This document shows, piece after piece, positions 6,785-27,077 of a stretch of DNA of 27,077 nucleotides. Position 1 is the first letter of the stretch. The number at the start of each line of letters is the position of its first letter. This stretch comes from a virus. The stretch is taken from positions 1-27,077 of IMG/VR virus record IMGVR_UViG_3300045988_105798, one strand, 5' to 3'. A model generated the notes under the pieces. That model had not been told where the DNA came from, did no database searches, and saw only the letters and a list, made by a program, of their open reading frames with translations. The position numbers and the translations under genes were made by a program.

Positions 6785-8503
6785 CTAATTTTTAAAGACA
6801 TACTTTTTACCTATAATAGTATATCCATAAGATCTGTTTCCATTCACTGATTTTTTAGTTACCTTAACTTCATAATATTTTGTAATATCAGTAGCTTTAG
6901 CATTAGTTTTATTAACTAAATCATAAGCTTTTTGTAGTATCTTTTTAATATCAGTATTAGAATACCACATACCTAAAGTTATATTTTGATTAAGTTTATT
7001 TGCTACTTTATTATCTACAGATTTATCTGAAGTTTTAATAAGTTCATCTTTTATTTTAGTAATACAGTATTTTAGAGTGGCCATTTTATTGAATCCAAGT
7101 TTAGTAATAGCATCCATTAACCAAGGGTATTTAATAAGAGCATCATCTAATTTTGGGGTGTTTACCTTATATAAGGTTTCATATTCCTCTCTTACTTCTT
7201 TAATTATATCTTTAAATGCTTTTGTTTTAGTATTTAGATCTATTTTTATAGAATTATCATATTGTTCTACCACTTTATTAAATCCTTTATTAATATATTC
7301 CTTAGAAAGATTAGCTCTAGCAGAATACAGTCCTCTAGATACTTTAAAATTAAATAAATCAATTTTAGCCATATTAGGGTCAAATTCAAATACATCATCC
7401 CAATTTAATTTAATGTATGCATCAGAAGTAAATTCTCTAAGTTTCTTTTTAGCTATCTCTGGAAGTTTATTGTATGCTTCTACAGCAATTTTAGTTTCTT
7501 CAATATTCTGGATATTAAGCTTTTTAAATTCTTCATAAGATATATCAGCATATCTTGTTGTAGAATAAATGTGAGTTATCCAATTAATATATTTACTATT
7601 TCTAATTCTACCAGCAATCTGCTGTATAGAAGTTGATATATCAAGTAATGTATTAGCTTTACTTGGATCAGATATAATTATTATCCTTCCATTTTCATCA
7701 TAAATATCTGAACCTTCAAATACAGTTGAAGTTAATAAGTTGATCTTTTTAGGTTCATCTAAGACTGTTGAATTAGGAATTGACAGTTTAGTTTTATTGT
7801 TTTTGGAATATATAACTCTGGTATTATTAGATGTTAATTTGGCTTTCTTAATAAGGTTCTTTATAAAGTCTACTGAATTAACGAATATGTAGGCGTTACC
7901 TTCAACCTGTCCGTTTAAAAATCCATTTATAAGTTTAATAGTAGAAGCTTCTACATTATCACATTTAACAGTTTGCACTTTTACATCTATAACATCATCC
8001 CATTCCTGCTTTACTAATTCTAAATCTTTTAATTCATCTAATACAAACTCTTCCTCTAAAGGTGTTGCTGTCATAAATGTAAAATTACCAAATAATTTAT
8101 AATATTTAAGCACTGATTGAATAGCAGAGCTTCTAAAGCTATACTGATTAAAGAGAATATGATATTCATCAATTAAAATGCTAAACTCTTTAGGATTAAT
8201 TGCAGAAATAACTTTATAAAGAGAATCATAGGTAACAATGATTTTAGGGCATTTAACACTATCTACATAATCTTTAATCTCTTTAATAGTAACACCAGCA
8301 TAAACTCCAAATATCTTCTCAGTACGTCTTTCATTTGGATATTGTTGAAGTTTATTTTCAACTAAGCTAGTAAATGGAACACAAATAACATAAGGCTTAT
8401 TGCATTCAATTGCCATTGAAGTTCCTCCACATCCAACTTTTCCTTTATCAAATAAGCAGTTAGTTGGCAACTCATTAATAATTTCATTTAAATATGTTTT
8501 CAT
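6785..8503 (-). CDS. Superfamily-2 DExH helicase (572 aa)
   Basis: Start taken at MKTYLNEII (8503). It has a P-loop-like GKVGCGGTS, ILIDEYH (DExH), MTATP (motif III) and QQIAGRIRN (motif VI). It has no in-frame TGA, and all 5 Trp are TGG. Confidence 0.8.
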   Translation of the reverse strand: MKTYLNEIINELPTNCLFDKGKVGCGGTSMAIECNKPYVICVPFTSLVENKLQQYPNERRTEKIFGVYAGVTIKEIKDYVDSVKCPKIIVTYDSLYKVISAINPKEFSILIDEYHILFNQYSFRSSAIQSVLKYYKLFGNFTFMTATPLEEEFVLDELKDLELVKQEWDDVIDVKVQTVKCDNVEASTIKLINGFLNGQVEGNAYIFVNSVDFIKNLIKKAKLTSNNTRVIYSKNNKTKLSIPNSTVLDEPKKINLLTSTVFEGSDIYDENGRIIIISDPSKANTLLDISTSIQQIAGRIRNSKYINWITHIYSTTRYADISYEEFKKLNIQNIEETKIAVEAYNKLPEIAKKKLREFTSDAYIKLNWDDVFEFDPNMAKIDLFNFKVSRGLYSARANLSKEYINKGFNKVVEQYDNSIKIDLNTKTKAFKDIIKEVREEYETLYKVNTPKLDDALIKYPWLMDAITKLGFNKMATLKYCITKIKDELIKTSDKSVDNKVANKLNQNITLGMWYSNTDIKKILQKAYDLVNKTNAKATDITKYYEVKVTKKSVNGNRSYGYTIIGKKYVFKN

Positions 8504-8576: not shown

Positions 8577-8586
8577 ACCTTAATGT

Positions 8587-8721: not shown

Positions 8722-8753
8722 CAAATATACAACATATTTTTTCAATTTCCAAA
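8722..8753 (-). promoter_or_regulatory. Bacteroidota-type promoter (minus strand): TTTG-N20-TATATTTG
   Basis: CAAATATA at 8722-8729 and CAAA at 8750-8753 on the + strand read as TTTG-N20-TATATTTG on the minus strand. Confidence 0.6.
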
Positions 8754-8800
8754 TTTTTGAGGTATTATTTTCATAAAAATTTTTCTCGTATTTCGATATA

Positions 8801-8831
8801 CAAATATAATAATAATTTTTTAATCTGCAAA
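8801..8831 (-). promoter_or_regulatory. Bacteroidota-type promoter (minus strand): TTTG-N19-TATATTTG
   Basis: CAAATATA lies at 8801-8808 and CAAA at 8828-8831 on the + strand. Confidence 0.55.
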
Positions 8832-8832
8832 A

Positions 8833-8864
8833 TTTGCATATTAAATATAAAATACTTATATTTG
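8833..8864 (+). promoter_or_regulatory. Bacteroidota-type promoter (+ strand): TTTG-N20-TATATTTG
   Basis: TTTG is at 8833-8836 and TATATTTG at 8857-8864, 46 nt upstream of ATG 8910. Its -33 element is back-to-back with the minus-strand -33 element inside the palindrome TGCAAA-A-TTTGCA. Confidence 0.6.
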
Positions 8865-10017: not shown

Positions 10018-10246
10018 CATAGATGATATTATGGCGGAATATGATTTAGACTTTAGTATATTTACAGAGATGAATGATAGATTAATTGAAGTATATCCAA
10101 AATGGACATTTCTAAATAAAGCCGATAAAACAGTTATGGTGTTATATGCCGAATATCAAAGTTATAGAGAAGTTGGAAAGATACTTGGAATTAGTCATAC
10201 AACTATACAACGATTTATAAAGCAAATAAGAAATAAATTATGTTAA
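9989..10246 (+). CDS. Sigma-70 region-4-like HTH protein (about 85 aa)
   Basis: LNKADKTVMVLYAEYQSYREVGKILGISHTTIQRFIKQIRNKL fits a region 4.2 / LuxR-type HTH. It is in the +1 frame relative to 9715-10017 and overlaps it by 29 nt. The start is uncertain (ATG 9989, 10001 or 10031). Confidence 0.5.
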   Translation: MKKTMQKKINIDDIMAEYDLDFSIFTEMNDRLIEVYPKWTFLNKADKTVMVLYAEYQSYREVGKILGISHTTIQRFIKQIRNKLC

Positions 10247-10569
10247 ATATATTATTAATTGCAATTATAGCTGTATTTATAGTAGACTTATCTGGAGTTG
10301 TAGATTATGCAAAACGAGCTTTATGAAAAAGACTTTATAAAGGATTGCCTTATAAAGAAGACTGAACAATAAAACCATTTGATTGTTCGTTATGTATAAC
10401 TTGGTGGATAGGTCTACTATATATACTGTTTACTAGGATGTTTACTTGGAAATATATAGCATTTGTAGCTTTAATTAGTTTTTTAACTCCAGTAATAAAA
10501 GATATAATGATCCTAATACAGGATCTATTTAATAAGCTAATAGATTTGATTTATAAAGTCATTAACTAA
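10240..10569 (+). CDS. Small integral membrane protein (109 aa)
   Basis: The ATG overlaps the preceding stop (ATGTTAA). It has two in-frame TGA codons, the motif KPFDCSLCITWWIG, and three hydrophobic segments. Confidence 0.55.
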
Positions 10570-11284: not shown

Positions 11285-11351
11285 TAATTATGAAGTTAGT
11301 GATATGGGAGAGTAACACTTTCTTGTGGTTTTATATGAAGGTATAAATAAT

Positions 11352-12596
11352 ATGAAAACATATATAGGTTATAGACCATTATTATATCAGAAGAAGGTTC
11401 ATATAGCTATGGCAGATGCTTATAGATCAGGTAAAGTATATACAATTAAAGCTAAACGACAAGTTGGTAAATCTTTACTTGCCGAAAATGAACTTTTAAG
11501 ATTTACAATAAATTATCCAGGTACAGTTAATTGCATAGTTGAACCTACTTTAGGCCAATCTAGAAGGGTATTTAAGGAAATAGTTAATGCAACAATAGAT
11601 TCTGACATTATAAAGAGAAAGAATGAAACTCTTTTGGAATTAGAGTTTACTAATAATAGTTCAATACTCTTTAGATCTGGAGAACAGATGGATTCTTTAC
11701 GAGGATTCTCAGTAAGTGGATTACTTGTATTAGATGAAGCTGCTTATTTAAAAGATGAAGTATTTGAGATTATAAAGCCTACTACAGACGTATGATCTGC
11801 TCCAATCTTAATAATTAGTACACCTAGATTTAGAGAGGGATTCTTTTATGAATGCTTTATAAAAGGACAGGATCCAAAATATGAAAAGTTTTATAAGTCA
11901 TTCGATTGAGCATTAGAAGATACATCTATGCTGCTTGATAAAGAGAAGCTGGAACTGTATCGATTAACTACTTCCAAAAATAAATTTAAGACTGAATATC
12001 TTGGAGAATTTGCAGACGATGATGGATGTCTATTTAATAACATATCAGAATGTATATTAAGTGAAAAACCTTCATATACAAACCTTTATATAGGAGTAGA
12101 CTGAGCAACTGGAAGCGGTAACGACTATACTTGCGTCACTGCTTTAAATGAAAAAGGCCAAATGGTATTTATTAAATATTTTAACGATAAAACTCCAACG
12201 GAACAGGTTGATATACTGACATCTATACTCTCTGAATATCAAGATGTTATAAAGACAGTACAAGTTGAACAGAATTCAATTGGTAGTGTTTTTTATGATA
12301 TGCTTATTAAGAAGAATCCTAAAATACATATAGTTAAGTTTTTAACTACTAATTCTTCTAAAGCTAATCTTGTTAATAAGCTACAAGCTGCCTTAGAGAA
12401 TGGTAAAATTAGATTATTAAAAGAAGATAAACTTTTAAATGAGTTGAGGTTATATGAAGCTAGTTATAATCCGAGAACTGGAAAAGTAACATATAACGCA
12501 CCATCTGGCTTTAATGACGATACAGTTATTTCATTAATGTTAGCCTATGACTCATTAAATACAAACAAAGGACATTATAATATTAAAGTTAAATAG
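11352..12596 (+). CDS. terL: Large terminase subunit
   Basis: Walker A is KAKRQVGKS and Walker B is LLVLDEAAY. Nuclease motifs are GVDW(TGA)ATGSGNDYT and GFNDDTVISL. The two same-frame standard-code track ORFs (11325-11795 and 12162-12596) and the ATG-less segment between them are joined by TGA at 11793, 11907 and 12102. Confidence 0.85.
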
Positions 12597-14003: not shown

Positions 14004-16184
14004 ATGGCATTTATACCAAGTAAATTAGGAATATATAATGCATCAAGGAGTTTTCCTGTTAAATGGAATAATCCTGGATGGGGAATTACTGGAGAATATG
14101 ATGGTTGGACTTGGGGATATGATTATACTGAAGAAGGGCCTTTAAATGTAACTATACAGGATCCAAGTAAAGAAGGATGTACAATACAATTTTTATCTCC
14201 TACAACAATAACTACTGATTCTTCTACTGTATTTCATTTGTATCCTAGAGGTCTTACTACTGCTTTATTAGTGGACCATTTACCAATTAATTTACATAGT
14301 AAAGCTCCTGGATATTATCCTGCTAATGACAGCATTAAAGTACCAAATACTGGTGGAGAATATACAGTAGAGTATATATTAAATAGATCAGATATTATTA
14401 AATGAGATGCAGCAGTTGTTAATGCTGCAGCTTTAGTTAATATGAAAGTTCTGGATTGAGATTCTTGCTCTATTAAGTTTAAAGTTACAGTAAGAGCTAA
14501 TACTCAATGAAATACTGATTTAACTGCAACTATCCAATTAAAGGCTTACTATGATACTAATAAATCTGTTAGTTCTACTTATAACTTTAAGATTGAAAAG
14601 AATAATATTCCTGAAGATTTAAAATTAGTAGTAACTCCTTCTTCTGGAACTTATGGAGCAGCGGCTTTTGTTACTGAAGAATTTCATTTAAGTACAACTC
14701 AAGCAGAAGAAACTATTACTTCATTTAATGTTACCTGTCCTCAAGCTAGTAATATTAAAAAGGATAGTGTTGATAACTATTTTGTATTAATTGTTCCAGA
14801 GAATAAAACTACTAATAATTTAGAGTTTAGTGCAATGGTTACTGCAACAACTTCTGGAGGTTACACTCTTGAAGCTACAGTTCCAATTAAACAATCTGCA
14901 ACTTCTTTGGTGATTCCTAATACTAATTATGAAGTAAGTTGGACTGCATCTACATTAAATATTATGGGAACAGGCTCAAACAACTTAGATGATGTTGTAT
15001 TTAGTATTCCTGTAGGTTGGATTAGTGGACAGAAGTTATCTGTAAATTCTCAAGGTGTAGCAACTATTAGTTTGAACATTGCGGAAAATTCTGGATTGTC
15101 TTCAAGAAAAGCAACTATTGGAGTATCTGTTATAAAGAATAGTTCAAGTATTATTAATTTATCTATTAATATTACTCAATCAGTTAAATCTGATATATCT
15201 CCAATTTGGAAAGATTATGTTTGGGAAGAGATTATTAGTTCAGATTTTATTGAATATCATCTAGATTATGCGGGAGAGATGGTTTATGCTGGAAAAGCTT
15301 ATAAATATCCAGAAACTGATAGAGTAGAGTTTTTATTAAATAATGTTGCTGAAAATGATCTATCTAATGGAATTATATTTAATACTTCAAATACAATAGT
15401 ATCTCCAGAATATTTAAAACCATTTACATTAATAACTTCATCTGGAAATGAGAAACCAATTACTTTTTTCAATGATTGGAGTTATAAAGATAGAGATTTG
15501 ACTAAAGGTACTATGTTAAGTGATCCTATTACTGGTTTAGTTGATCCAAGACAATATTTAGTAGCAAGTTGAATTTTACCAACTGGAACTGGAGTTGTTA
15601 ATAGATTTTTTTATGTAGATGGAACATCAAATGCTATAGATATTAGTTTAAATTCTGGAATTAATGGATATACATATACAGAAGATTTAAGCAATAAACT
15701 ATGGCCTTGTGGGAGCTATTTAATAGTAGGATTTGTAGAAGACGGAAATATTAGTGATAGACAGATTAGATATGATATAGATACCACAGGTAAAGATTAT
15801 GTGTTATATTATACTAATTCAGCAGGAGGATGGGATTCATTACTTGTTGAGGGTAATGTTAGAAAGACTGATGAAATTAAATCTGAAACATATACTCGCA
15901 AAGTATTAAATACATCTCAAGAATTTGCAAGGAATAAGTATTTAAATACTATAACTTCAAGCTGGATTCTTTATACTGGTTATTTAAATGATATTCAAGC
16001 TTCTAAGATGTTTAATTTAATTGAAAGTACTAAAGTATATTTGCATAATCTTAAAGATAATACTATTACTCCAGTATTAATTACAGATACAAATTGTGAA
16101 TATAAAACTTATACTAATCAAGGTAAGAATAAGTTCTACTATACAATTAATGTAGAAGCTTCTCAAGATACTTATCGTACATAA
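14004..16184 (+). CDS. Large tail/baseplate protein with Ig/BACON-like repeats (726 aa)
   Basis: Track ORFs 14004-14405, 14835-15572 and 15801-16184 share one frame. They are joined through TGA at 14403, 14457, 14508 and 15570. Repeats such as VSWTASTLNIMGTG...ATISLNIAENSGLSSRKATIGVSV are present. Confidence 0.7.
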
Positions 16185-16186
16185 TT

Positions 16187-19100
16187 ATGAGAAAGAATAT
16201 TAAATTATTTATTGCAAATAAAGAGGTTGACTGTAGTGAGGGAATTAGTCTTCCTATAACATATACTGTTGAGGATTTCCAAAACCCCACTATAGTCAAG
16301 AACTCGTTTAGTAAAACGATTTCTATACCTGGCACAAAAAACAATAATAAGATTTTTGGAGAGATTTATAAATTAGATAGATTTCTCCATATAAAAGAAG
16401 GTGATTTCTCTGGAGTATATTTTGATCCTTCAAAAAGAGTTGACTTTGGAATCTATAATAATGGATATTTAGTTGAATCAGGATATATGCAGTTAAATAG
16501 CATCTCTATAAAGCAAGCAGTTATTACTTATAATATTACTTTATATGGAGGATTGGGAGATTTCTTTTATGGACTTAAATATAAAGAAGATGGCACTATT
16601 AGAACTCTAGCTGATTTACAATACTTTGTAACTGATAAAGATGGTAATGTACTTCCTACCGATACTGAAATGAATTTCTACATTAATAAAGATTTTGTAA
16701 ATACTTGTTTTAATTGGAGTAAAGTAAATGACGGAAGTCAAATTTATGATTTTTTAACATTTATTCCTGCATATAACGGTTTATATGAAAACTTTGATAA
16801 TGAAACTTGTTTAATAAATACTAATGGAGATAATTTATTTCCTACTAGTAAGACCGATTCAGGAACTACATACACACCTTATAATGGATATGGATTAGCT
16901 AAATTAAATAGAGCATATACAGAATGGGAGATGAGAGATCTTAGAAGTTATATGCAAAGGCCAGCTTTAAAATTAAGTAAGTTAATAGAAACTATATGTA
17001 GAAAAGAGAATTCTGGATATGATGTTATAATGGATCAAGATTTCTTTAATTATTCAAATCCATATTGAAATAAAGCGTTTGTTGCATTACCTTTATTAGG
17101 ATCTACTGAAGATGAAGAATCAGATAATATTACAGAGAATGCTAAACTTACTAAATATAATGATTTGTTTTGGTGTGGATTAAAACCTGGAGGAACAACT
17201 ACTTCAGTAAACTGAGGAAGATTTAGTGTTACAGGGAGTGATGTAATAGTTCCTGGTGAAGGACAAGTAATTGATTTATCTGCAACTCCAGCTAATACTC
17301 TTGTTAATATTAATGTTGATTTTCAGTTATTCTATAATGCAAATGTTTCTGCAGGTAATGATTTATACCTATCCTATGTGTTAAATGGAAAATCTGGAAA
17401 TGCAGAATATACGAATCATCCTTATAGAACTTCTGTAACTGCACAAATATTACTATATGATGCTGATGATACATCTTCTCCTTCTAGACCTATAGCATAT
17501 TCTCCATTATATAATTTCACTAATTCTATTCAAGGTCAAAATCCAGCAGGACCTAATTCTTGGTTTAATTATTATCCTTTAACTGATGCACCTGTTGAAA
17601 CTATTCTTGGGCATTTTGTAAAAGATAGTGGAAATAGGTATTATTTCAAAAGTGATAATAATACTAATACTTTCAGATTTACTGTAAAAGATATGCCTAA
17701 AGTTAATAAGATTTTAGTAAATATACAAATTGCAAGAAGAACTGAAAATTTATATAACCAAGATGCTGTATGGCAGTTAAATAATATGCATCCAAATGAT
17801 GTTACTGCTAATAGAGTTGCTGGATGGTCAGAATTTTTATATGATGAAGATCAATATACGCTAAAAGCTTCTTGGCCTTCAGCAGTTACTTCTGATGCTT
17901 TAATTACTAAGCAGAAATTATTAAAGACAGAACAATCTCCTGCTGATTACTTATTAAGTTATGCAAAACTATTTGGATTGTATTTTACAAAAGATATTGA
18001 TAGTAAAACAATTAGAATATATACTAGAAATAACTTTTTTAAGAATGTAATTTCAGATTGGAGTAAAAGAATTGATTATTCTAAAGACTTTAATGTAAAT
18101 CCAATATTATTTGATAAAAAGTGATATACTATGTCATTAGAAACTCCAGAAACGTATTATGCTAAGAAGTATGATAGACAGTATGATATAGACTATGGTC
18201 AGCAAAGATTAAATACTGGATACAATTTTAATAGTGATAATACTGATTTATATTCTGGAAATATATTTCAAAATGTGGTATCTGCTAGAGATGCAGACAA
18301 GTATTTTAGAAATTTCTTTAATTCTGGAAATACTTATGTACCTGCATTTATGAATGATAATATTACATATAGTTTATTTAATAGAACTTCTACAGAAGTA
18401 AAAACTAGTGATCAGGATTTATATGGAGCTAATTTTATAGATCAAGGAAAGACTACAGAATGGTGAGATGTTCCTGGAAATGATATATTTGCAAAAACTT
18501 GTTTTTACACATTAGACAATAATGAACAGAGTCTTGAGGAAATAAAGAGTGCTTTATTGTTTTATAATGATACAGTTAGTATGAATGATATAGCTGGTAA
18601 TCCAATTAATTATTGAATTACAGATGATGTTACTGAAATGTCGGTTCTTAATGATGGTGAACCTTGTTACATTTATACTACTAGTGAAAATAATTCTGCA
18701 GGATCAAAAATTGCAATTAAAAGAACTACATTACCACAATTTATAAGATATACTATTTCAAGTAACTTCATATCTTCATCTTGAGATTTTGGAGTTCCAA
18801 GAGAAATATATATTGATAAAGTTAGTTATTTGGAACAATCTACTTTATATAGTAGATTCTGGAGTAAATTTTATAATGATCAATTTGATGTAAATACTAA
18901 AAAAGTCACCTGCTTTGTAAGATTAGATGATTTAGATGTTAAATATGATTTACTTAGACAATTCTATTATTTTGAAGATTCATACTGGGTACTTAATAAG
19001 ATAGATGCTTATGATATTAATTCAGATTCTACTGTTAGATGTGAATTTATTAAAGTTCAAGATATTAATAGTTATTTAGCTGGACTTCAAAATTCAGGTG

Positions 19101-19630
19101 AGTATATATCATTTGACGATTCAGATCCAATAGTAGATTATCAAGCTGGAACTAAAAAGATTACAGTTACTTCTAATATTCCTTGGGAATTAGGATGATA
19201 TAGTCCAAATGAAATTGTAAGCATTACACCTGAATCTGGACAACCTGGAGAAACAGAATTGACAGTTACATATAATGAGAATACTACATATAATCAAAGG
19301 AGTTTCTATTTTAGTCTTTATAAACAAGGAGGCGTAGATGGTTCTCAATGTATGTTTACTCAAACTCCAGACCCAAATAAAGCTGTTCTTATTACAGGAA
19401 AGCTTCAAACTTCTACTGGAGGTATTCCTTCTGGTGTTAATCAGATTCTAACTGAAAATGATAATTTCTTAAATGACACTTATATGAGAGATGATGGAAG
19501 TTATAGAATATATGCTCAAAATGGAGTTCAATTTTTATTTAGAGTATCTGACGGACCAACAGGAACAGTTAAATATACAGAGAATTTAACACTAACAGAA
19601 GATACTGTTAAAAACGTAACTATAAACTAA
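16187..19630 (+). CDS. Very large tail tip/baseplate protein (1,147 aa)
   Basis: Five track ORFs (16187, 17378, 18131, 18830, 19259) share one frame. They are joined through TGA at 17066, 17213, 18122, 18464, 18614, 18782 and 19196. The C-terminal Ig/BACON-like module reads SITPESGQPGETELTVTYNENTTYNQRSFYF. Confidence 0.7.
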
Positions 19631-19631
19631 T

Positions 19632-21965
19632 ATGGCTGAAGAAATTAAAAAAGTAATTAGTGTAGATACTAAAACCAGTTCAAAGTCGATCAAGCAGCTA
19701 CGAGAAGAAGTAGCTGGCTTGACGGCTGAACTTGAAGATCTTGAGATTGGTAGTACTGACTATACTAAAAAGCTTGAAGAACTTGTTAATGTTCAAAATA
19801 AGTTAGGTGTTGCTACAGAATCTATGCAAGGTAAAACTGTAAATGCAGTTAAGGCGTTTGACAGTATCAATCAAGTAGCAGGAGGTTTAGCTGGAGGAGT
19901 TTCAGCTGTTAGTGCAGTATTCACTTTATTTGGAAAAGATACAGAGAATCTTCAAAAAACTATGGTTAAATTGCAAGCAGCAATTGCTATAGTTCAGGGA
20001 ATTGGAGGATTAAAAGGTTTAGGTGAAGGTATTCTTAATGGAGTAAAATCATTTAAAGCCTTATCTGTAGCAATGGGTGGTGCTACGGCTGCAACTGGAG
20101 GATTATCTGTAGCAATGGGTGTGCTACGGTCTGCAATTATATCTACAGGAATTGGAGCTTTAGTTGTAGCTCTTGGTATGTTAATAGATTTTGCAATTAA
20201 AGCAGCATCAGGAATTGATGATTTAAAAATTAGTATTTCTGGTTTAAAAGATATAACTGATCAATGAGGAACAAGTTACGCCAGAGCTAATACTGAAATT
20301 GCAGGATTGGAGAGACAAAGAGAGAGAGAGTTAGCTGCTGGTAAAAAAAGTGAAATACAAATTTGGAAAGATTATGCTGAAGAATTAGGAGATTTAGGTG
20401 CTGAATTATTTCATCATTTTGGCAGTGTAACTAAAGCATATTCTGACTCATTTACTAATATACTTAAAAGTAATGAATACTTCAAAAAAGAATTTAAGAA
20501 ATCTGGATATGAAACTTGGGAAAATTATTCCAAAGCAATACGATGAGGATTAAAGACTAGTTCTAATGAAGTTGATTTCTTTTTAAGTAAGTTAACTGAT
20601 GCTCAAAAAGCGGCTTATGAGGAAGCTTCTGGTATTTATAATACATATTTTGAGAAGCTAAATGATTTAATGCAAAAATCTGCTGCAGCTTATGAAAAAG
20701 TTAAGTTAATGGAGATTGCTGCAGAACGTAAGCAGAGAGAAGAAGCTAAAGCCCAGTATCTAAAGAAGATAGAAGAAAGAAAGAAACATAATCAAGATCT
20801 GCTTAAAGTTATTAACGATTTCTATGAAGAAAATAGGAAACTTCTTTTAGATGATGAAGCAAGAGAACTTGATGAATTAAATAGAAACTACCAGAATCAA
20901 TTAGAGGCACTTAAAGAAGCCTATAATCTCAAATTACTAACAGTTAAAGAATATAATGAGAGATTAAAGCAGTTAAATGATGCATATAATAAAGAGTGAC
21001 TAGATAATAATAATGAACGTTATAGAGAAGACTTAGAAAATAGATTATCTGCATTACAAGAAATGCAAGATAGGGAATCTCAATTATTTGCAAATAAAGA
21101 GGCTGCATTATCTGCAGGTAAATCTGGAAGTTATGAAACTAGAGTTCAACAATTTGGTTCAACGGATTTTTATCAATCTGGAGAAGATGTTCAAAGACAA
21201 TATCAAGATACATTAGCTTATAATGAACAGTTATATAATCTCACTAAAGATAGAATTACAAGAGAGAATGAATTGATGTCTCAACAGCAAGCTATTTTAG
21301 ATGAGCAATATAACAATAAGCTGATAACTGAACAAGAATATGCCAATCAATCTCAAGCAATTAAATTACAGCAAGAAGCTAATGATATAGCTTTATCAGA
21401 AGCAGCTAATGCAAGAGAAGAAGCAGATCTTCAAGCATTTAAAGATAGACAAGCTAAAAAGCAACAGGCTATTCAAGCTACTATGAATGTAGCTTCTTCT
21501 TTAAGTGGAGCTTTAGCTAATGTATTTAAACAAGAAGCTAGTGATGATAAAAAATCAGAGAAGCAAAGAGAGAAATCCTTTAAAGTTTATAAAGCATTAG
21601 CTACTACTCAAGCTATTATTGATACTATCAGTTCTGCCCAAGGTGCATATAAAGCTATGGTGGGTATTCCATTTGTAGGACCTATTCTTGCTTCTATTGC
21701 AGCTGCTACTGCTGTTATAGCTGGTATTGCTAATGTAAAAGCTATCCAAAATGAACAATTACCTTCATCTGGAGGTTCTGGAAGTGATGCAGGAACTACT
21801 GCTCCTGCTGCTTTAAATACTGCTCCTGTAGAATATACTCGAAACTTACTTGGCAATAAAGAGACTGATGAATTGAATCAACCAGTTAAATGTTATGTAG
21901 TTGAGAGTGATATTACTACTGCTCAAACTAAAGTTGCAGTTACAGAATCAAATGCAAGTTTCTAA
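19632..21965 (+). CDS. Tape-measure-like protein (777 aa)
   Basis: Four same-frame track ORFs are joined through TGA at 20265, 20544 and 20997. It has long coiled-coil stretches plus Gly/Ala-rich hydrophobic segments (GGLAGGVSAVSAVFTLFG; VGIPFVGPILASIAAATAVIAGIANV). Confidence 0.65.
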
Positions 21966-22028: not shown

Positions 22029-22102
22029 AATGTCAAAATTTTATTTATCTTAGATACCTGTGTGAGTAAAAACTTGACAGTTATATTCTATATAAATATA
22101 AT
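22029..22102 (+). promoter_or_regulatory. Conserved intergenic element, copy 3, containing a perfect TTGACA-N17-TATAAT
   Basis: AATGTCAA is at 22029-22036 and GTGAGTAAAAACTTGACA at 22062-22079. TTGACA (22074-22079), a 17-nt spacer and TATAAT (22097-22102) follow. The element lies 81 nt upstream of ATG 22160. Confidence 0.6.
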
Positions 22103-22159: not shown

Positions 22160-22753
22160 ATGGGAAATATGTATAACGAACTGCCACTATACCAAGCAGT
22201 AATAACTGACGATTTTGATGGCATAGAATATGTAGCTTTAACATCAAAGCCAGCTACCCAAGTAAACTGGGTTGCATTTAATAACTCTTTGAAATTCTCT
22301 ATGGATGAAGATCAACATATTGTAACTTCTTGTTTAATGGTATGTGATATGCCAATTTTTAGACGAGATGACAATTTGGGAGAATATTATATCCAATATA
22401 ATAAAGAGACTTTAAGAGCAATGGCTGAGAAGATGATGAGGGATAAAAGAACTGATGCTGTTAATATAGAGCATTTAGAAGATTCTTCGATTCCTGGAAT
22501 TGTACTACAAGAACTTTACATTAAAGATGAGAAACGAGGAATTTCTCCCATAGAATTCAAAGATGTGCCTGACGGTTCTTTATTTGTAACTTACAAAATA
22601 AATAATCCTATTATTTGGGATGCTATTAAAGCTGGAAAGTTCAAAGGCTTCTCTATTGAAGGCTTATTTACTTTAGAACGTAAGGATGATGAATATACAG
22701 AACTTAAAGAGATACAAAGAATGTTGAAGAAGATAAAACGAATTAAAAAGTAA
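22160..22753 (+). CDS. Prohead protease candidate (XkdF-like) (197 aa)
   Basis: It sits ahead of the scaffold and capsid genes. The pattern ..NIEHLEDS...FVTYKINNPIIWDAIKAGKFKGFSIEG resembles XkdF-type phage proteases. It has no TGA. Confidence 0.5.
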   Translation: MGNMYNELPLYQAVITDDFDGIEYVALTSKPATQVNWVAFNNSLKFSMDEDQHIVTSCLMVCDMPIFRRDDNLGEYYIQYNKETLRAMAEKMMRDKRTDAVNIEHLEDSSIPGIVLQELYIKDEKRGISPIEFKDVPDGSLFVTYKINNPIIWDAIKAGKFKGFSIEGLFTLERKDDEYTELKEIQRMLKKIKRIKK

Positions 22754-22756
22754 ACT

Positions 22757-23338
22757 ATGAGCAAATTCACTAAAATCAAATTAGAGCTTGCCAAAATGTT
22801 GGCAAAATTCAGTGATCTGAAAACTTCAAAGGGAGTCTTAACTTGGGATTCTGACGAAGATCTTAAAGCTGGAATGGATGTTTATGTAATGGATGAGAAT
22901 GGCGAATACGCTCCTGCTGCTGATGGTGATTATGTTACCGAAGATGGTCAAACTATCGTAGTTAAGGAAGGTCGCGTTGAATCGATTACTGATCCCAAAG
23001 CTGAAGTAGATCCAGAAGAAGGAATGAGCACTGTTGAGGTAGCTGCTGAGGAAGAAGTTGCAGATCCTATGGTTCAAACTGATGGTGTTAAAGAAAGTGA
23101 AACTGATGCCATTGATGCAATTCATAGAGAGATTAATGAGCTTTATGACATTGTAGACAAACTTACAAAGAAGGTTGCCGAGCTTGAAGCAAAAGGAACT
23201 GAAACAAAAGAGACTGTTGAGAAAATGAGCAAAATGAGTGCTGCTTTCTCTGCAGAAGAAGAGATTGAAACAAAGCGTACTACTCCTACAAGTGGCAATG
23301 CAGAAATAGATAGAAAGCTTAAAAACTTTATTGGTTAA
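22757..23338 (+). CDS. Scaffolding protein candidate (193 aa)
   Basis: It is acidic with a coiled-coil segment (INELYDIVDKLTKKVAELEAKG) and lies immediately upstream of the capsid gene. It has no TGA. Confidence 0.55.
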   Translation: MSKFTKIKLELAKMLAKFSDLKTSKGVLTWDSDEDLKAGMDVYVMDENGEYAPAADGDYVTEDGQTIVVKEGRVESITDPKAEVDPEEGMSTVEVAAEEEVADPMVQTDGVKESETDAIDAIHREINELYDIVDKLTKKVAELEAKGTETKETVEKMSKMSAAFSAEEEIETKRTTPTSGNAEIDRKLKNFIG

Positions 23339-23359
23339 TAATTTAAAAATTAATAATTT

Positions 23360-24262
23360 ATGAATCCTGTAATGACTTCTTTGACTGCTTATGTTGAGCA
23401 GCGTAGATTACCTCTTATTAAAGAGGCTGTATTAAAAGCTAAGAGTGCTAGTTTATTTAACTTACAGACTGATATTAAAACTTCAGCTGCTCTTAACTTA
23501 CTTTCAACTGATGTTGAATTTGGAGATGGTCTGACTTGTGGATGGGATGAGGCTGGAACGCAGACTCTTTCACAACGAGTTCTTACGACTGGAAATATCA
23601 AGATTAATATGGCTTATTGCGACAAAGCTATGCTTAAATATTGGACTCAGTATCAGGTTCGCGTTGCTGCTGGTCAGAAAACGCTTCCTTTCGAAGAGGA
23701 CTTTATTAGTGGTGTAGTTGAGAATGTTAAAGCCTCTATTGAAACCGCTATCTGGCAAGGTGATACTACTTCTCAGACTAATAACCTGAAGTACTTTGAT
23801 GGTCTGTTAAAGATCTTAAAAACTGCTACTGGTACTGTTGATGTAAAGATTACTGGTACTTCTGCTTACGATGACATTATGGCTGTTTATAACGCTATTC
23901 CTGAGAAAGTACTTGATGGTGCTTCTATCTTAGTAGGCGCTGATACCTTCCGTAAATTCGTCCAGGAGTTAGTTGCTAAGAACTACTACCATTATAGTGG
24001 TGAGAATCTTAACGGTGAGATTATGCTTCCTGGTTCGCAGGTTAAAGTAATCGCTGTTAATGGTCTTAACGGAACTGACCAGATCGTTGCTGGTCAGCTT
24101 GACAAGAACTTCTTCTATGGCTGCGATATGATGAATGACGAAGAGAAATTCGAAATGTGGTATTCGCAGGATTTCAGAGAATTTAGATTAGCTATTGAAT
24201 TTAACGCTGGTGTACAAGTGGCGTTCCCAGATGAGATCGTACTTGGTGCAAAAGCTGAATAA
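23360..24262 (+). CDS. Major capsid protein (300 aa)
   Basis: It follows the protease and scaffold genes and has a typical size. Its codon usage is visibly less AT-rich. All 4 Trp are TGG. Confidence 0.75.
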   Translation: MNPVMTSLTAYVEQRRLPLIKEAVLKAKSASLFNLQTDIKTSAALNLLSTDVEFGDGLTCGWDEAGTQTLSQRVLTTGNIKINMAYCDKAMLKYWTQYQVRVAAGQKTLPFEEDFISGVVENVKASIETAIWQGDTTSQTNNLKYFDGLLKILKTATGTVDVKITGTSAYDDIMAVYNAIPEKVLDGASILVGADTFRKFVQELVAKNYYHYSGENLNGEIMLPGSQVKVIAVNGLNGTDQIVAGQLDKNFFYGCDMMNDEEKFEMWYSQDFREFRLAIEFNAGVQVAFPDEIVLGAKAE

Positions 24263-24317
24263 ATAGATAATTACATAAAACAATATTAAAAAATCAGGCC
24301 GAAAATCTCCTACTTTT

Positions 24318-24686
24318 ATGAAATATACTGGAATGATTTATCTTATTCAAAATAACATTACACAAAAAGTGTATGTCGGACAGACAACAAGAGACATTGA
24401 AACTAGATTTAAGGAGCATTGTAGAAGATCAAGTAACTGTAAAAAACTATCGAATAGTATAAATAAATATGGTAAAAATAATTTTTCTATTATTGAGTCT
24501 ATGATTCAGGCTAAAGCAAAAATTATTTATCAATATAATTTAGATGGTAGTTTTGTCAGATGCTGACCTTCTGCAAGGTCTGCAGCTAGACATTATGGCT
24601 CAAGTAAGAGACATCATATTACAGATGTATGCTCTGGTAGACGTAAATCTGCCTATGGGTTTTTGTGGAGTTTTGCAGAGGAATAA
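24318..24686 (+). CDS. Compact GIY-YIG homing endonuclease (122 aa)
   Basis: It reads GMIYLIQNNITQKVYVGQTTRDIETRFKEH (GIY...YVG...R..E). It has TGA at 24564-24566 and the tail GFLW(TGG)SFAEE. It is inserted between the capsid and major tail genes. Confidence 0.7.
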
Positions 24687-24745
24687 GAAAGACATATAAA
24701 GGTTTTATGTGGAAATACGAATAATTAATAAAATTTAATAAATAT

Positions 24746-25264
24746 ATGGCTTGCTTAATAACGCTTAATGGAATTACACTTGATTGCCAGCCTTCGTTAG
24801 GTGGTATCAAAAGAGTTTGGATTACTCAATATTCAGATGTAAAATCTGTAGTTGTAGGTGATGACAATATGATTGAAAGTATCACTTTAGAGGGTGAAGC
24901 TCAATGGTATGAGTATCAGTTCCGTAAGGCTACTGGTTCTTTAACCTCAACTTTGAATGTTGACGAATCCGCAGGAGTTAACTATGTAAGTAATGAGTTA
25001 GCTCTTGTATTTACAAAGATGGAAACTGCTAAGAGAATTGAAATTGCAGCTTTATCGATCGGTCAGCTTGCAGTTGTTGTTGAGGATAGTAATGGTCATT
25101 ACTGGTTCCTTGGTAAAGATGATTATGTAAGCGCTTCTGCAGGTACTGGTATTACTGGTACAGCAAAAGGGGATCAGAATGCTTATACTCTGACTCTCTC
25201 TACTGATTCGGATTCTTATCCTTATGAGTTGTCAGCAGAAGCTATTGCTGCAATAGTTGGATAA
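24746..25264 (+). CDS. Major tail protein candidate (172 aa)
   Basis: The size and the pattern GGIKRVWITQYSDV...WYEYQFRKATGSLTS...NGHYWFLGKDD..TGTAKGDQNAYTLTL are typical of siphovirus tail tube proteins. It has no TGA. Confidence 0.55.
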   Translation: MACLITLNGITLDCQPSLGGIKRVWITQYSDVKSVVVGDDNMIESITLEGEAQWYEYQFRKATGSLTSTLNVDESAGVNYVSNELALVFTKMETAKRIEIAALSIGQLAVVVEDSNGHYWFLGKDDYVSASAGTGITGTAKGDQNAYTLTLSTDSDSYPYELSAEAIAAIVG

Positions 25265-25270
25265 TCAGAT

Positions 25271-25310
25271 TAAGAGCGGGTAATTAATTTTACTTGCTCT
25301 TATTTTGTTT
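25271..25310 (+). terminator. Intrinsic terminator after the major tail protein gene
   Basis: TAAGAGCGGGTAA pairs with TTACTTGCTCTTA and is followed by ttttgttt. Confidence 0.6.
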
Positions 25311-25339: not shown

Positions 25340-27077
25340 ATGGAAAATCTATTACCCTATTTAAATGTACTTGAGGCAGACACTATTACAAGAGATAATG
25401 TAACCAAAGCCTTAGTAATAGATAAAGATGATAATATAGCTCTTTTAAATGGAGAAGATTTAGGAACTAATAATTATCAAGATCTGCAAAATAAGCCCTC
25501 TTTAAATGGTAAGACTTTAGAAGCCTCAACTAATATAGTTCCAGCAATACAGGTTCAAGCAATACCTACTAAATTGACTATTACTCCATCTTTAGGCAAT
25601 CAAACTGGACAAGCAGTTGAACTTCCTGGATATGATACAAGTACTAATGCTTCTGGTATTTTAACATCTCAAGTATTTGGTATTCTTAATGATAAGTATA
25701 CTAAAGAAGAAATAGACAATATTAACAGTGCGATTAATACAGCTATTTCTAAAAAACAAGATAAATTAACAGCAGGAGCTAATATACGAATTGTAGATAA
25801 CGTTATATCTGCCTTTAATAATCATTTATTCTTACATTTAGATGAAAATGATACAGAACATCAAGCTTATGTATATTCTTTTATTAAGTCTAATTTAGAG
25901 TTCTATTTATTTGCTGAGATCACTTACGAAGGCAAAGTAGTAGTTCTTCCTTTAGTTGCCATTGAAAACAACGAATCGTTATATTTAAAAGGAATGTATC
26001 TTAAAGATGATTCTACAATCGTTGAGGTATCTGCAGTTTTAGTAGCTAATGGTAACATAAGTGTTAATACTTCTGAAATATCAATATCTGATTATAACCA
26101 GTTGACAAATAAGCCACAGATTAATTCAGTAGAATTGTCTGGAAATAAAACCCTTGCTGATCTTGGTATTCAAGCTGCAGGTAATTATGCTTTAAAGAGT
26201 GACATTCCAACTAAAGTAAGTGAATTACAAAATGACTCTCAATTTGTAACTGAAACAGCATTAACAGACGGATTAGCTCCTAAAGCAGATAAGACTTATG
26301 TTGATGAACAATTAGCTCTTAAAGCTGATTCTACTACAGTTGAATCTTTATCTGGAGAAGTAGCTACTAATAGTACAGATATTAGTACTTTAAAGAGTAC
26401 AGTTGCAGAGAATGGTGAAAAGATTGATTCTCTTGATAAAGAGATGGCTACCAAACAGGATACTCTTGTTAGTGGAGAATCAATTAGAACAATTAACAAT
26501 CTTTCTTTATTAGGAGATGGTAATATTAATGTAGGTGATGTTCCTTCTATTACGGTAGAAAATGAACAAATACCAAATGAGACAGATTTTAATAGAGTTG
26601 CAGAAGCTGCAGCAAATGATAGAGCAGTTTTAATTAGAATTAAAACTGCTGAAATGACGTTACCCTCTAATTATTGACAGTATTCCTCTTCAGAATCTCA
26701 GAGAGGCTTTGTTGCTTATGCAACATATTTATCAGGAACTAATAACATAACTCTGATTGCATATATTCTAGAAAATCAACCAGTTATGGTAGGAACTGAG
26801 ATTGAAGAATTACAAGAAGAGTTAGTTTCTGGAACTAATATTAAAACTATTAATGGTGAAAGTATCCTAGGATCAGGTAATATAGACACTCCAGATAGTA
26901 AGGTTACTAGTGCTGCAAATCACTACACTCCTGTTGGAGGGAGTGCTACATCTGGAACTATTATAAATTCTATTACTAAGGATGAGAAAGGACATATTGT
27001 AGATATAGGGGTTGCTAATGGTATAGATGCTTCAAAAATTACATCTGGGGTAATTGATATTGAACGTCTACCCAAAG
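25340..27077 (+). CDS. Tail fibre protein, 5' portion (continues at base 56 of the window because 27023-27077 duplicates 1-55)
   Basis: ATG 25340. An in-frame TGA lies at 26675-26677 and the frame stays open to the window end. It has fibre repeats (YQDLQNKPSLNGKTL / YNQLTNKPQINSVELSGNKTL; GESIRTINNLSLLGDGNIN / GTNIKTINGESILGSGNID). The full gene is about 3,504 nt. Confidence 0.8.

What the first reader, a model, noticed from the sequence alone, without database searches (positions are those of the whole stretch)
22160..25264. TGA is excluded from the head module, major tail protein and helicase but dense in fibre, baseplate and lysis-accessory genes
The protease, scaffold, capsid (22160-24262), major tail protein (24746-25264) and 572-aa helicase (6785-8503) together contain 15 Trp by my count, all TGG. 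Elsewhere TGA supplies a large share of Trp. The counts are 8 TGA versus 3 TGG in the fibre, 6 TGA in the 218-aa 4875 gene, and 7 TGA versus about 12 TGG in the 16187 gene. The only TGA inside the head block is in the inserted GIY-YIG gene. Two explanations fit. Highly expressed genes may avoid a slowly decoded codon. Alternatively, the design may be staged, with a standard-code-readable set (replication and capsid) made before suppression is established.
Basis: seen in the sequence. Interest (0 to 1): 0.7.

Follow-up and report, generated by a model that had tools for sequence, protein, structure and literature searches.

The report
Recoded phage spares bulk proteins from TGA
A small human-gut phage that reads the stop codon TGA as tryptophan keeps TGA out of its capsid, scaffold and tail-tube genes and its helicase gene, a real and conserved pattern that looks mainly like ordinary selection on codon choice in heavily used genes, not a two-stage genetic-code design.

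Summary
The counts are exact. Protease, scaffold, capsid, tail tube and helicase hold 15 TGG and 0 TGA, while the other genes hold 49 TGA and 46 TGG. The window is a complete circular 27,022-bp gut phage genome with no tRNA gene, and TGA aligns with Trp in relatives.

In this one genome the pattern is moderately significant: heterogeneity p=0.005, but p=0.06 after allowing for post-hoc choice of genes. It holds across about 35-50 relatives:
- capsid 1 (doubtful) TGA vs 137 TGG
- tail tube 1 vs 94
- scaffold 0 vs 21
- helicase 1 vs 105
- tail, baseplate and tape-measure genes 31-50% TGA

The protease is not exceptional (9 vs 54).

Exclusion is not absolute. TGA sits at conserved Trp positions of protease, tail tube and helicase in some relatives.

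The capsid and tail-tube genes also prefer G-ending Lys/Glu/Gln codons. They lie in a conserved unit running from a promoter-like site to a terminator-like hairpin. This fits selection for yield in bulk proteins.

The helicase avoids TGA without that general bias, echoing the known standard-code replication genes of recoded phages.

A staged design is poorly supported. No suppressor is encoded, and the portal, terminase and a sigma-like regulator all carry TGA.

This is a new variant of a known phenomenon. What decodes TGA remains unknown.

The parts
22062..22102 (+). Promoter-like site upstream of the head block: the 18-nt motif GTGAGTAAAAACTTGACA, whose TTGACA is followed by 17 nt and TATAAT
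   Evidence: The only 12/12 sigma-70-type consensus match in the genome. The 18-nt motif occurs 3 times exactly, always between genes. A TTGACA element about 85 nt upstream of the protease is kept in most relatives. Function is inferred.
22160..22753 (+). Prohead protease (XkdF/S78_2 type); 0 TGA / 2 TGG
   Evidence: Pfam PF14550, E=6e-10; counts. Relatives have 9 TGA / 54 TGG, with TGA at the conserved W153. Not depleted (p=0.39-0.47).
22757..23338 (+). Scaffold-like acidic protein; 0 TGA / 1 TGG
   Evidence: Assigned from its position between protease and capsid and its composition; no family hit. Relatives have 0 TGA / 21 TGG.
23360..24262 (+). Major capsid protein; 0 TGA / 4 TGG; G-ending codon bias
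   Evidence: Weak Pfam Phage_capsid hit (E=0.005, below the family cutoff) plus gene order. Relatives have 1 TGA / 137 TGG; the single TGA is in a truncated contig and aligns with Asp, not Trp. No TGG/TGA flips where 5.2 are expected. Simulation p=0.0003 (uniform model) and 0.04 (bias-adjusted).
24318..24686 (+). GIY-YIG homing endonuclease inserted between capsid and tail tube; 1 TGA (at 24564) / 1 TGG
   Evidence: Pfam PF01541, E=1.5e-8; TGA position. The insertion is present or absent, and differs in form, among relatives.
24746..25264 (+). Tail tube (major tail) protein; 0 TGA / 3 TGG
   Evidence: The AlphaFold model (pLDDT 66) best matches phage tail-tube proteins such as Milano, 7-7-1, SPP1 and Mu, at Foldseek E about 1e-3 to 1e-2. 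Relatives have 1 TGA / 94 TGG. Simulation p=0.035 (uniform) and 0.11 (adjusted).
25271..25302 (+). Terminator-like hairpin plus T-run immediately after the tail-tube gene
   Evidence: Strongest terminator-like site in the genome, 13 pairs. A hairpin and T-run hold the same position in all relatives, with different stem sequences.
6785..8503 (-). SF2 helicase-like protein, the only large minus-strand gene; 0 TGA / 5 TGG
   Evidence: The AlphaFold model (pLDDT 82) matches SF2 helicases, including the HSV-1 origin-binding protein, Hjm and DEAD-box proteins, at E about 1e-8. Relatives have 1 TGA / 105 TGG. Simulation p=0.006-0.008. Its Lys/Glu/Gln A-ending fraction is ordinary at 0.71-0.82.
8722..8864 (.). 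Divergent early promoter region holding three Bacteroidota-type promoter matches (TTTG-N17-23-TAnnTTTG), two pointing towards the helicase and one towards g10
   Evidence: Three of the 5 genome matches fall within 143 bp; 1.7 are expected in the whole 27 kb.
25340..27077 (+). Tail fibre, 5' part (the gene continues at window position 1); 1 TGA here
   Evidence: The 55-bp terminal repeat joins the window ends. The joined gene is 1167 aa with 8 TGA / 3 TGG and a Phage_tail_C hit at its end.
1..1821 (+). Tail fibre, 3' part; 7 TGA / 3 TGG
2697..3779 (+). Portal protein; 1 TGA / 3 TGG
   Evidence: Pfam PF04860, E=9e-15. Relatives have about 11% TGA.
4875..5531 (+). 218-aa protein with an N-terminal hydrophobic segment, upstream of the lysis genes; 6 TGA / 0 TGG, with TGA at codons 7, 14 and 21
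   Evidence: Relatives have 67 TGA / 51 TGG. Enrichment p is about 0.05-0.07. Only a PHROG of unknown function matches.
5533..5694 (+). Uncalled 53-aa ORF with two hydrophobic segments (holin-like), directly upstream of the endolysin; 0 TGA / 2 TGG
   Evidence: Conserved in 11 distinct relative sequences, and its Trp codons are never TGA. The holin role is inferred.
5694..6143 (+). M15 peptidase (endolysin); 1 TGA / 1 TGG
   Evidence: Pfam PF08291, E=5e-16. Relatives have 26/39.
10240..10569 (+). 109-aa protein with three hydrophobic segments; 2 TGA / 3 TGG. The most TGA-enriched gene in the clade
   Evidence: 36 TGA / 6 TGG at conserved Trp columns; enrichment p=0.0003-0.006.
11325..12596 (+). 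Large terminase; 3 TGA / 0 TGG
   Evidence: Pfam Terminase_6C and Terminase_6N. Relatives have 21/30.
14004..16184 (+). 726-aa tail/baseplate protein; 4 TGA / 12 TGG
   Evidence: relatives 86/188
16187..19630 (+). 1147-aa tail/baseplate protein; 7 TGA / 12 TGG
   Evidence: relatives 170/252; weak BACON_2 hit
19632..21965 (+). Tape-measure-like protein; 3 TGA / 2 TGG
   Evidence: Assigned from composition and position. Relatives have 99/100.

Best explanation
This is a complete 27-kb genome of a human-gut phage, probably infecting a Bacteroidota host. It uses TGA as an ordinary Trp codon but encodes no tRNA to read it.

In most of its genes TGA and TGG swap freely over evolutionary time. Purifying selection removes TGA from the proteins made in bulk: capsid, scaffold and tail tube. 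These sit in one unit running from a promoter-like site to a terminator-like hairpin. Selection also removes TGA from the SF2 helicase, which is read from host-type promoters.

The likely reason is that UGA decoding in the infected cell is efficient but not perfect, being slower or partly competed by release factor 2. Each TGA would then cost a few percent of yield. That cost matters only where a great deal of protein, or the first protein made, is needed.

For the capsid and tail tube, avoidance of TGA is the extreme end of a general shift to G-ending codons.

Shown here: the counts, the conservation across relatives, TGA = Trp, the codon-bias link, and the conserved hairpin after the tail-tube gene.
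Inferred: the expression levels, the cost of a TGA, the host, and what decodes TGA.
For: - Exact counts.
- TGA aligns with TGA or Trp, not Gly.
- Clade totals: capsid 1/137, tail tube 1/94, scaffold 0/21, helicase 1/105, against 31-50% TGA in tail genes.
- At conserved Trp columns the background genes show 86 TGG/TGA flips where 68 are expected from Lys/Glu/Gln A/G flips, so TGA is close to neutral there. Capsid, tail tube and helicase together show 1 flip where 10.9 are expected (Poisson p=2e-4).
- Tree simulations: capsid p=0.0003, helicase 0.008, tail tube 0.035.
- The capsid has Lys/Glu/Gln A-ending fraction 0.34-0.42 and GC3 0.32; TGA share correlates with A-ending bias across genes.
- The TGA-free block is bounded by the only 12/12 promoter-like site and the best terminator-like hairpin, and that hairpin is conserved with compensatory changes.
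- TGA is tolerated at conserved Trp positions of tail tube, helicase and protease in a few relatives. That fits a graded cost and not a fixed rule.
- Fold evidence supports the tail-tube and SF2-helicase identities.
Against: - No expression or proteomic data exist for this phage.
- After adjusting for general codon bias the capsid is only marginal (p=0.04) and the tail tube is not significant (p=0.11). A TGA-specific cost is therefore not separately demonstrated for them.
- The helicase has no general codon bias, and nothing shows that it is highly expressed.
- The protease shares the operon but is not depleted.
- A small holin-like gene is also TGA-free, and some low-copy genes (portal, g06) are TGA-poor. 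Copy number alone does not order the genes.
- The relatives are not independent samples, and the gene trees are approximate neighbour-joining trees.
- The decoder of TGA is unknown, so 'imperfect decoding' is an assumption.
Confidence: 0.55

Rival explanations
1. Staged, two-code design. A set of genes readable in the standard code (helicase, head proteins) is translated first. The TGA-containing genes are translated only after a switch to TGA = Trp, as proposed for crAss-like, Agate and other recoded gut phages.
For: - The helicase is read from host-type promoters and avoids TGA without any general codon bias.
- Published precedent: replication genes and integrases of recoded phages stay free of the recoded stop (bioRxiv 10.1101/2021.08.26.457843).
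- One small membrane protein (g13) and g07 are TGA-enriched, as reported for lysis genes.
Against: - No suppressor tRNA in this complete genome or in 114 related loci.
- No release factor or Trp-tRNA synthetase in Pfam scans of 27 products or PHROGs scans of 10.
- Genes downstream of the same early promoter region carry TGA, including the sigma-like regulator (15 of 17 relatives).
- Portal and terminase, which are needed together with the capsid, carry TGA.
- The head proteins are late products, so they gain nothing from being readable early.
- TGA occurs in helicase, tail tube and protease of some relatives.
- The holin-like ORF next to the endolysin is TGA-free.
Confidence: 0.15
2. No TGA-specific effect. 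The pattern only reflects differences among genes in third-position composition (G-ending against A-ending codons), whatever causes those differences.
For: - A model in which TGA share follows each gene's Lys/Glu/Gln A-ending preference fits better than a constant share (negative log-likelihood 344.8 against 347.6).
- Under that model the capsid drops to p=0.04 and the tail tube to p=0.11.
- Spearman rho 0.50-0.62.
Against: - The helicase is a clear outlier: A-ending fraction 0.71-0.82, predicted TGA share 0.37, observed 0/54 at conserved columns, p=0.006.
- The capsid is still low after adjustment.
- The composition differences themselves need a cause, and codon selection in highly expressed genes is the usual one.
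Confidence: 0.15
3. The host itself uses genetic code 4 (a Mollicutes-like bacterium). The phage simply shares its code, and TGG preference in some genes reflects the host's tRNA pool.
For: - TGA behaves as a fully neutral sense codon in most genes.
- No tRNA is encoded, as in Mycoplasma and Spiroplasma phages (PMC11210395).
- A perfect TTGACA-17-TATAAT site lies upstream of the head block.
Against: - No Shine-Dalgarno use.
- Bacteroidota-type promoter matches cluster in the early region.
- The wider family occurs in Bacteroidota genomes: a Hymenobacter chromosome and contigs binned into a Chitinophagaceae and a Bacteroidota metagenome-assembled genome.
- The phage is very common in human-gut metagenomes: one tail-tube variant is seen on 255 contigs.
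- The paper reporting a 250,000-genome code screen never mentions Bacteroidota in its main text (PMC8629427).
- Only 45% of Trp codons are TGA at 30% GC. From my own knowledge, this is low for a native code-4 system.
Confidence: 0.1
4. Chance, or recent import. Either the TGA-free genes were picked after the fact from a noisy distribution, or the head module and helicase arrived recently from a standard-code phage and have not yet accumulated TGA.
For: - In the window alone the statistic that is safe against post-hoc choice gives only p=0.058.
- A sister lineage (L030) has no TGA at all.
Against: - The pattern repeats across relatives down to about 70% (helicase) and 56-87% (capsid) protein identity.
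- Lys/Glu/Gln codons in the same genes have flipped about once per column, so there has been ample time.
- L030's capsid is only 67% identical, so it is not a recent donor.
Confidence: 0.04

Closest known systems
Stop-codon-recoded gut phages with uneven, gene-class-specific use of the recoded codon (Borges et al., bioRxiv 10.1101/2021.08.26.457843; crAss-like phages, PMC7886860; block-wise multi-code genomes, bioRxiv 10.1101/2022.06.29.495998)
   Same: - Gut phage of low GC content.
- TGA read as Trp in a probable standard-code host.
- The recoded codon is unevenly spread.
- The replication gene is free of it.
- A close TGA-free relative exists.
- Lack of a detectable suppressor tRNA is common: only 15-35% of code-4 phages have one.
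   Different: - Here the genes that avoid TGA include the most abundant late proteins (capsid, scaffold, tail tube). In those reports structural and lysis genes form the recoded set, and capsid proteins of TAG-recoded crAss-like phages were detected only with the alternative code (PMC9523058).
- The genome does not divide into a clean early block and a late block.
- No code-switch machinery is encoded.
Translational selection on synonymous codons in highly expressed genes (a general principle; stated from my own knowledge)
   Same: The capsid and tail-tube genes shift codon choice across several amino acids at once, and TGA/TGG follows the same direction.
   Different: The disfavoured codon is a reassigned stop, so the cost may be premature termination and not only slower decoding. 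The helicase avoids TGA without any general bias.
Phages of native code-4 hosts (Mycoplasma and Spiroplasma phages)
   Same: TGA = Trp with no phage tRNA (PMC11210395).
   Different: The translation-start and promoter signals here, and the phage's relatives, point to Bacteroidota.

Membership tests
Genetic code 4 (TGA = Trp) phage | In-frame TGA inside conserved genes, with longer and contiguous ORFs when TGA is read through | tested here: met
   ORFs of 100 aa or more cover 21,135 nt under code 11 and 30,507 nt under code 4. Eighteen of 27 genes carry in-frame TGA. An independent public gene call gives the same long products.
Genetic code 4 (TGA = Trp) phage | TGA aligns with Trp in homologues (and not with Gly, as it would in code 25) | tested here: met
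   In close relatives, window TGA aligns with TGA 239 times, Trp 139 times and Gly 32 times. Relatives' TGA aligns with window Trp 116 times and Gly 22 times, even though Gly is far commoner than Trp. TGG/TGA flips occur at conserved Trp columns.
Genetic code 4 (TGA = Trp) phage | TGA is not used as a terminator | tested here: inconclusive
   All 27 gene models end in TAA or TAG, but the models were built by reading through TGA. One TGA lies 5 codons before the end of g10.
Code-switching recoded phage (early genes standard, late genes recoded, with switch machinery) | Phage-encoded suppressor tRNA, release factor or aminoacyl-tRNA synthetase | tested here: not met
   ARAGORN and Rfam find no tRNA in the complete genome. 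Relaxed settings give only low-scoring hits, most of them inside genes. None is found in the recoded relatives among 114 loci. No such Pfam or PHROG family appears among the products scanned.
Code-switching recoded phage (early genes standard, late genes recoded, with switch machinery) | Early and replication genes free of the recoded stop, late structural and lysis genes carrying it | tested here: not met
   The helicase is free of TGA. However, the regulator-like g11 and g12, and g13, carry TGA, while the late capsid, scaffold, tail-tube and holin-like genes are free of it.
Codon-usage selection in highly expressed genes | A coordinated shift of synonymous codon choice across several amino acids in the candidate genes | tested here: met
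   Met for capsid and tail tube (Lys/Glu/Gln A-ending fraction 0.34-0.58 against about 0.7; capsid GC3 0.32). Not met for the helicase.
Codon-usage selection in highly expressed genes | Measured high expression of those genes | not testable with these tools
   Only indirect signs are available: the promoter-like site and terminator-like hairpin bracketing the block, and the known high copy numbers of capsid and tail-tube proteins in tailed phages (my own knowledge).
Phage tail tube protein | Tail-tube fold | tested here: inconclusive
   The model is of moderate quality (pLDDT 66). The top Foldseek matches are nearly all tail-tube proteins, but at E about 1e-3 to 1e-2 and TM-scores of 0.26-0.48. 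No Pfam hit; only a PHROG of unknown function.
SF2 helicase | Two RecA-like domains with Walker A and DExH motifs | tested here: met
   Model pLDDT 82. Foldseek probability is 1.0 to DEAD-box, Hjm, Mfd and HSV-1 origin-binding helicases. The G-G-T (G24, G26, T28) and D-E-x-H (D112, E113, H115) residues are invariant in 30 homologues. No Pfam hit for the window protein.
HK97-type major capsid protein | A match to a capsid family, or the HK97 fold | tested here: inconclusive
   The Pfam Phage_capsid hit has E=0.005 and 16.6 bits, below the 24.2-bit cutoff. There is no PDB sequence match. The assignment rests on the protease-scaffold-capsid gene order and wide conservation. The structure was not modelled.

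The most novel reading that the evidence does not exclude
In tRNA-less code-4 phages of standard-code Bacteroidota, TGA may act as a graded brake on translation. Some factor not yet recognised, in the host, a co-resident element or the phage itself, would read UGA as Trp efficiently but leakily. The phage genome would then be sorted by operon. Proteins needed first (helicase) or in bulk (the terminator-bounded head and tail-tube operon) would be kept TGA-free. Low-copy genes, and a few small genes (one of them a membrane protein), would accumulate TGA. One of the always-TGA-free early products could itself belong to the decoding switch.
Probability: 0.25. Interest if true: 0.65.

Novelty: new variant of a known kind. 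Interest (0 to 1): 0.4.

Why it matters
Recoded gut phages are usually described as having early genes in the standard code and late structural and lysis genes in the alternative code. Here the most abundant late proteins avoid the recoded codon, and no suppressor is encoded. This suggests that, at least in small tRNA-less recoded phages, the spread of the recoded codon reflects a per-codon cost weighed against how much of each protein is needed.

It also gives a practical handle. TGA-free capsid, tail-tube and helicase genes are the ones that standard-code gene callers recover intact, so they can serve as markers for finding such phages.

The pattern sharpens an open question: what reads UGA as Trp in an infected Bacteroidota cell.

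Tried and rejected
- **GenBank phages.** DNA and capsid-protein searches found no match, so no cultured relative and no host label.
- **Family and structure searches.** PHROGs, and PDB sequence searches for the helicase, tail tube and capsid, were nearly empty.
- **Host through prophages.** The scan of species-representative genomes returned only two distant capsid hits on short Bacteroidota MAG contigs.
- **Long contigs.** Walking along a 148-kb contig that carries a relative showed it to be colinear with the phage and re-entering the fibre gene. It looks like a concatemer, not host DNA. A 193-kb scaffold was not resolved.
- **Second recoded lineage.** A search around the more distant relative L031 found no further members.
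- **Relaxed tRNA search.** It gave only low-scoring hits, most of them inside genes, including a 'tRNA-SeC (tca)' inside g20. Rfam does not support any of them.
- **Base after TGA.** T is less common after TGA than after TGG (0.14 against 0.23-0.24), but so is C, and the window alone is too small. Inconclusive.
- **Position of TGA within genes.** No bias.
- **Code 25 (TGA = Gly).** Rejected from the alignments.
- **Recent import of the head module.** Rejected from the turnover of Lys/Glu/Gln codons.

Full report
**What the window is.** The two ends of the window share an exact 55-bp repeat. The same sequence occurs as 27,149-bp contigs in two human-gut metagenome assemblies whose contig names indicate a k-mer of 127, and 27,022 + 127 = 27,149. 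The window is therefore a complete circular genome of 27,022 bp with 30% GC.

Reading TGA as a sense codon raises the length covered by ORFs of at least 100 aa from 21,135 to 30,507 nt. It gives 27 gene models, which agree with an independent public gene call. Pfam identifies the following:
- portal
- DUF6712 protein
- M15 peptidase
- HNH and GIY-YIG homing endonucleases
- a protein resembling sigma-factor region 4
- large terminase
- XkdF-type prohead protease
- a weak capsid match
- a fibre tip domain

The fibre gene runs across the window ends. ARAGORN and Rfam find no tRNA or any other known RNA.

**The observation.** Protease, scaffold, capsid, tail tube and helicase hold 2+1+4+3+5 = 15 TGG and no TGA. 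The fibre has 8 TGA and 3 TGG, the gene at 4875 has 6 and 0, and the gene at 16187 has 7 and 12. The only in-frame TGA between 22160 and 25264 is at 24564, in the GIY-YIG gene. The genome total is 49 TGA and 61 TGG.

TGA means Trp. In close relatives it aligns with TGA (239 times) or Trp (139 times) far more often than with Gly (32 times), although Gly is far commoner than Trp. Distant relatives have no in-frame TGA at all.

**Is it more than chance?** In this genome alone, TGA/TGG use differs among genes (permutation G-test p=0.005). The four head and tail-tube genes taken as a group defined in advance give p=0.002. A statistic that cannot be inflated by choosing genes after the fact (Trp codons lying in TGA-free genes, 17 against 10 expected) gives only p=0.058.

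The relatives settle it. A capsid-based scan of viral contigs returned 34 close relatives with 56-97% capsid identity and about 31% GC; all use in-frame TGA where other genes could be checked, except L030. It also returned 46 distant standard-code relatives. A helicase-based scan added 22 loci. TGA and TGG totals in the relatives:

| Gene | TGA | TGG |
|---|---|---|
| capsid | 1 | 137 |
| tail tube | 1 | 94 |
| scaffold | 0 | 21 |
| helicase | 1 | 105 |
| protease | 9 | 54 |
| portal | 8-11 | 67-90 |
| tape measure | 99 | 100 |
| g21 | 170 | 252 |
| g20 | 86 | 188 |
| g07 | 67 | 51 |
| g13 | 50 | 30 |
| g18 | 53 | 22 |

The portal row gives the ranges from the two scans.

Because relatives are not independent, I counted changes on gene trees. 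At conserved Trp columns the background genes show 86 TGG/TGA flips. From the rate of A/G flips at conserved Lys/Glu/Gln columns of the same genes, 68 are expected. TGA and TGG are therefore close to interchangeable in most genes. Capsid, tail tube and helicase together show 1 flip where 10.9 are expected (Poisson p=2e-4).

A two-state Markov model fitted on each gene tree, with simulation, gives these p-values:

| Gene | Uniform 35% TGA | Adjusted for the gene's own A/G-ending preference |
|---|---|---|
| capsid | 0.0003 | 0.04 |
| helicase | 0.008 | 0.006 |
| tail tube | 0.035 | 0.11 |
| protease | 0.47 | 0.39 |

In the opposite direction, g13 (p=0.0003-0.006), g18, g22 and g07 are TGA-enriched.

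**Exclusion is not absolute.** TGA sits at conserved Trp positions in four cases:
- the protease of 8 close relatives (checked in L005)
- the protease of L031
- the tail tube of L013
- the helicase of L106

The single capsid TGA is in a truncated 4-kb contig and aligns with Asp, so it is doubtful. It argues for graded selection and against a fixed rule.

**Anatomy around the block.** The TGA-free block is bracketed by two signals. Upstream, at 22074-22102, lies the only 12/12 TTGACA-17-TATAAT match in the genome. It is part of an 18-nt motif found three times exactly, always between genes. Directly after the tail-tube stop codon, at 25271-25302, lies the strongest terminator-like hairpin.

That hairpin with its T-run is present at the same place in all relatives that could be checked. 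The stem sequences differ but stay complementary, even in the TGA-free sister L030. Protease, scaffold, capsid and tail tube therefore look like one transcription unit, with the homing endonuclease inserted into it.

The capsid gene has the highest GC3 (0.32 against about 0.15). It also has the lowest A-ending share of Lys/Glu/Gln codons (0.34-0.42 against about 0.7), and the tail tube, portal and connector genes lean the same way. Across genes, TGA share follows this bias (rho 0.50, or 0.62 without the helicase).

The helicase is different. It is the only large minus-strand gene. It is preceded by two of the three Bacteroidota-type promoter matches clustered at 8722-8864. Its general codon bias is ordinary, yet it lacks TGA.

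Its predicted structure (pLDDT 82) matches SF2 helicases, including the HSV-1 origin-binding protein. The tail-tube label is supported at a modest level by fold matches to phage tail tubes.

**Host and decoder.** Four lines of evidence point to a Bacteroidota host:
- Start codons have no Shine-Dalgarno motif (5 of 27 genes against a 16% background).
- The promoter motif is of the Bacteroidota type.
- Distant capsid homologues sit on contigs binned into a Chitinophagaceae MAG and a Bacteroidota MAG, and a helicase homologue sits in a Hymenobacter chromosome.
- The phage is very common in human-gut data.

The paper reporting a 250,000-genome screen for alternative codes never mentions Bacteroidota in its main text (PMC8629427). 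No tRNA is found in the recoded relatives among the 114 loci. What decodes TGA therefore remains unknown. This gap is already recognised: only 15-35% of code-4 phages have a detectable suppressor.

**Interpretation.** The best reading is purifying selection against a Trp codon that is efficiently but imperfectly decoded, acting where yield matters most. For capsid and tail tube this sits on top of, and is partly inseparable from, the general codon bias of a highly expressed operon. For the helicase the avoidance is specific to TGA. It resembles the published pattern in which replication genes of recoded phages stay in the standard code.

- No switch machinery is encoded.
- The sigma-like regulator, portal and terminase all need TGA decoding.
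- Head proteins are late products.
- A conserved holin-like ORF at 5533-5694 is TGA-free, while other small genes, one of them a membrane protein, are TGA-rich.

**Novelty.** Uneven, gene-class-specific use of recoded stops in gut phages is established. What differs here is which genes avoid the codon: the most abundant late proteins. This occurs in a tRNA-less 27-kb phage, and the TGA-free block coincides with a conserved promoter-to-terminator unit. I found no paper describing this in two full-text searches or in the papers I read. In crAss-like phages, capsid proteins were among those detected only with the alternative code. I rate it a new variant of a known kind, of moderate interest.

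Noticed in passing
window 1-55 and 27023-27077: An exact 55-bp terminal repeat. The window is a complete circular 27,022-bp genome, and the fibre gene (25340-27022 plus 1-1821) spans the junction.
   Followed up: yes
window 8560-8577, 13434-13451, 22062-22079 (+); 6733-6750 (-, 3 mismatches): The 18-nt motif GTGAGTAAAAAYTTGACA occurs three times exactly, always between gene blocks (0.17 expected by chance). It may be a phage-specific promoter or regulatory site. It is found exactly in only some relatives.
   Followed up: partly
window 8722-8864: Three Bacteroidota-type promoter consensus matches (TTTG-N17-23-TAnnTTTG) cluster in the divergent region between the helicase and g10. Together with the lack of Shine-Dalgarno motifs, this points to a Bacteroidota host.
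   Followed up: partly
window 9715-10017 and 9971-10246: Two short overlapping ORFs. The second matches sigma-70 region 4 and HTH families. They may form a split or frameshifted phage sigma-like factor. The second carries TGA at its only Trp in 15 of 17 relatives.
   Followed up: no
window 5533-5694: An uncalled 53-aa ORF with two hydrophobic segments lies directly upstream of the M15 endolysin. It is conserved in relatives, and its two Trp codons are never TGA. It is a likely holin.
   Followed up: partly
window 4875-4940 and 8910-8955: g07 has TGA at codons 7, 14 and 21 (heptad spacing, upstream of the hydrophobic segment). g10, counted from the ATG at 8910, has TGA at codons 7 and 14, with a similar local pattern (X-F ... 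D-X).
   Followed up: no
window 12598-13257 and 13083-13400: Two ORFs overlap by 175 nt in different frames just after the terminase gene. This may be a programmed frameshift pair. The second is TGA-rich across the clade.
   Followed up: no
window 8910-9725 and 24318-24686; loci L115-L118: Homing endonucleases (HNH/NUMOD4 and GIY-YIG/NUMOD) are inserted at different places in different relatives, including between capsid and tail tube, after the portal gene and between tail genes.
   Followed up: partly
locus L030 (IMGVR_UViG_3300029905_000019): A sister lineage (capsid 67% identical, 28% GC) has no TGA at all in 17 homologous ORFs, neither in-frame nor as the stop codon. This TGA-free state is compatible with both codes, as proposed for the step before recoding.
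   Followed up: partly
IMGVR_UViG_3300045988_175865 (148 kb; loci L001, L084, L106) and ENA scaffold LIJU14-1 scaffold_39 (193 kb; L115): Relatives sit on contigs five to seven times the genome length. The 148-kb contig is colinear with the phage over the stretches examined and re-enters the fibre gene, so it is probably an assembly concatemer and not a prophage.
   Followed up: partly
window 6290-6312: A terminator-like hairpin that scores on both strands lies between the endolysin operon and the end of the minus-strand helicase operon.
   Followed up: no
loci L001-L034: The overall TGA share of Trp codons outside the head genes varies widely among close relatives, from about 16% in L005 to about 60% in L018 and L026. 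The TGA load appears to change quickly.
   Followed up: no
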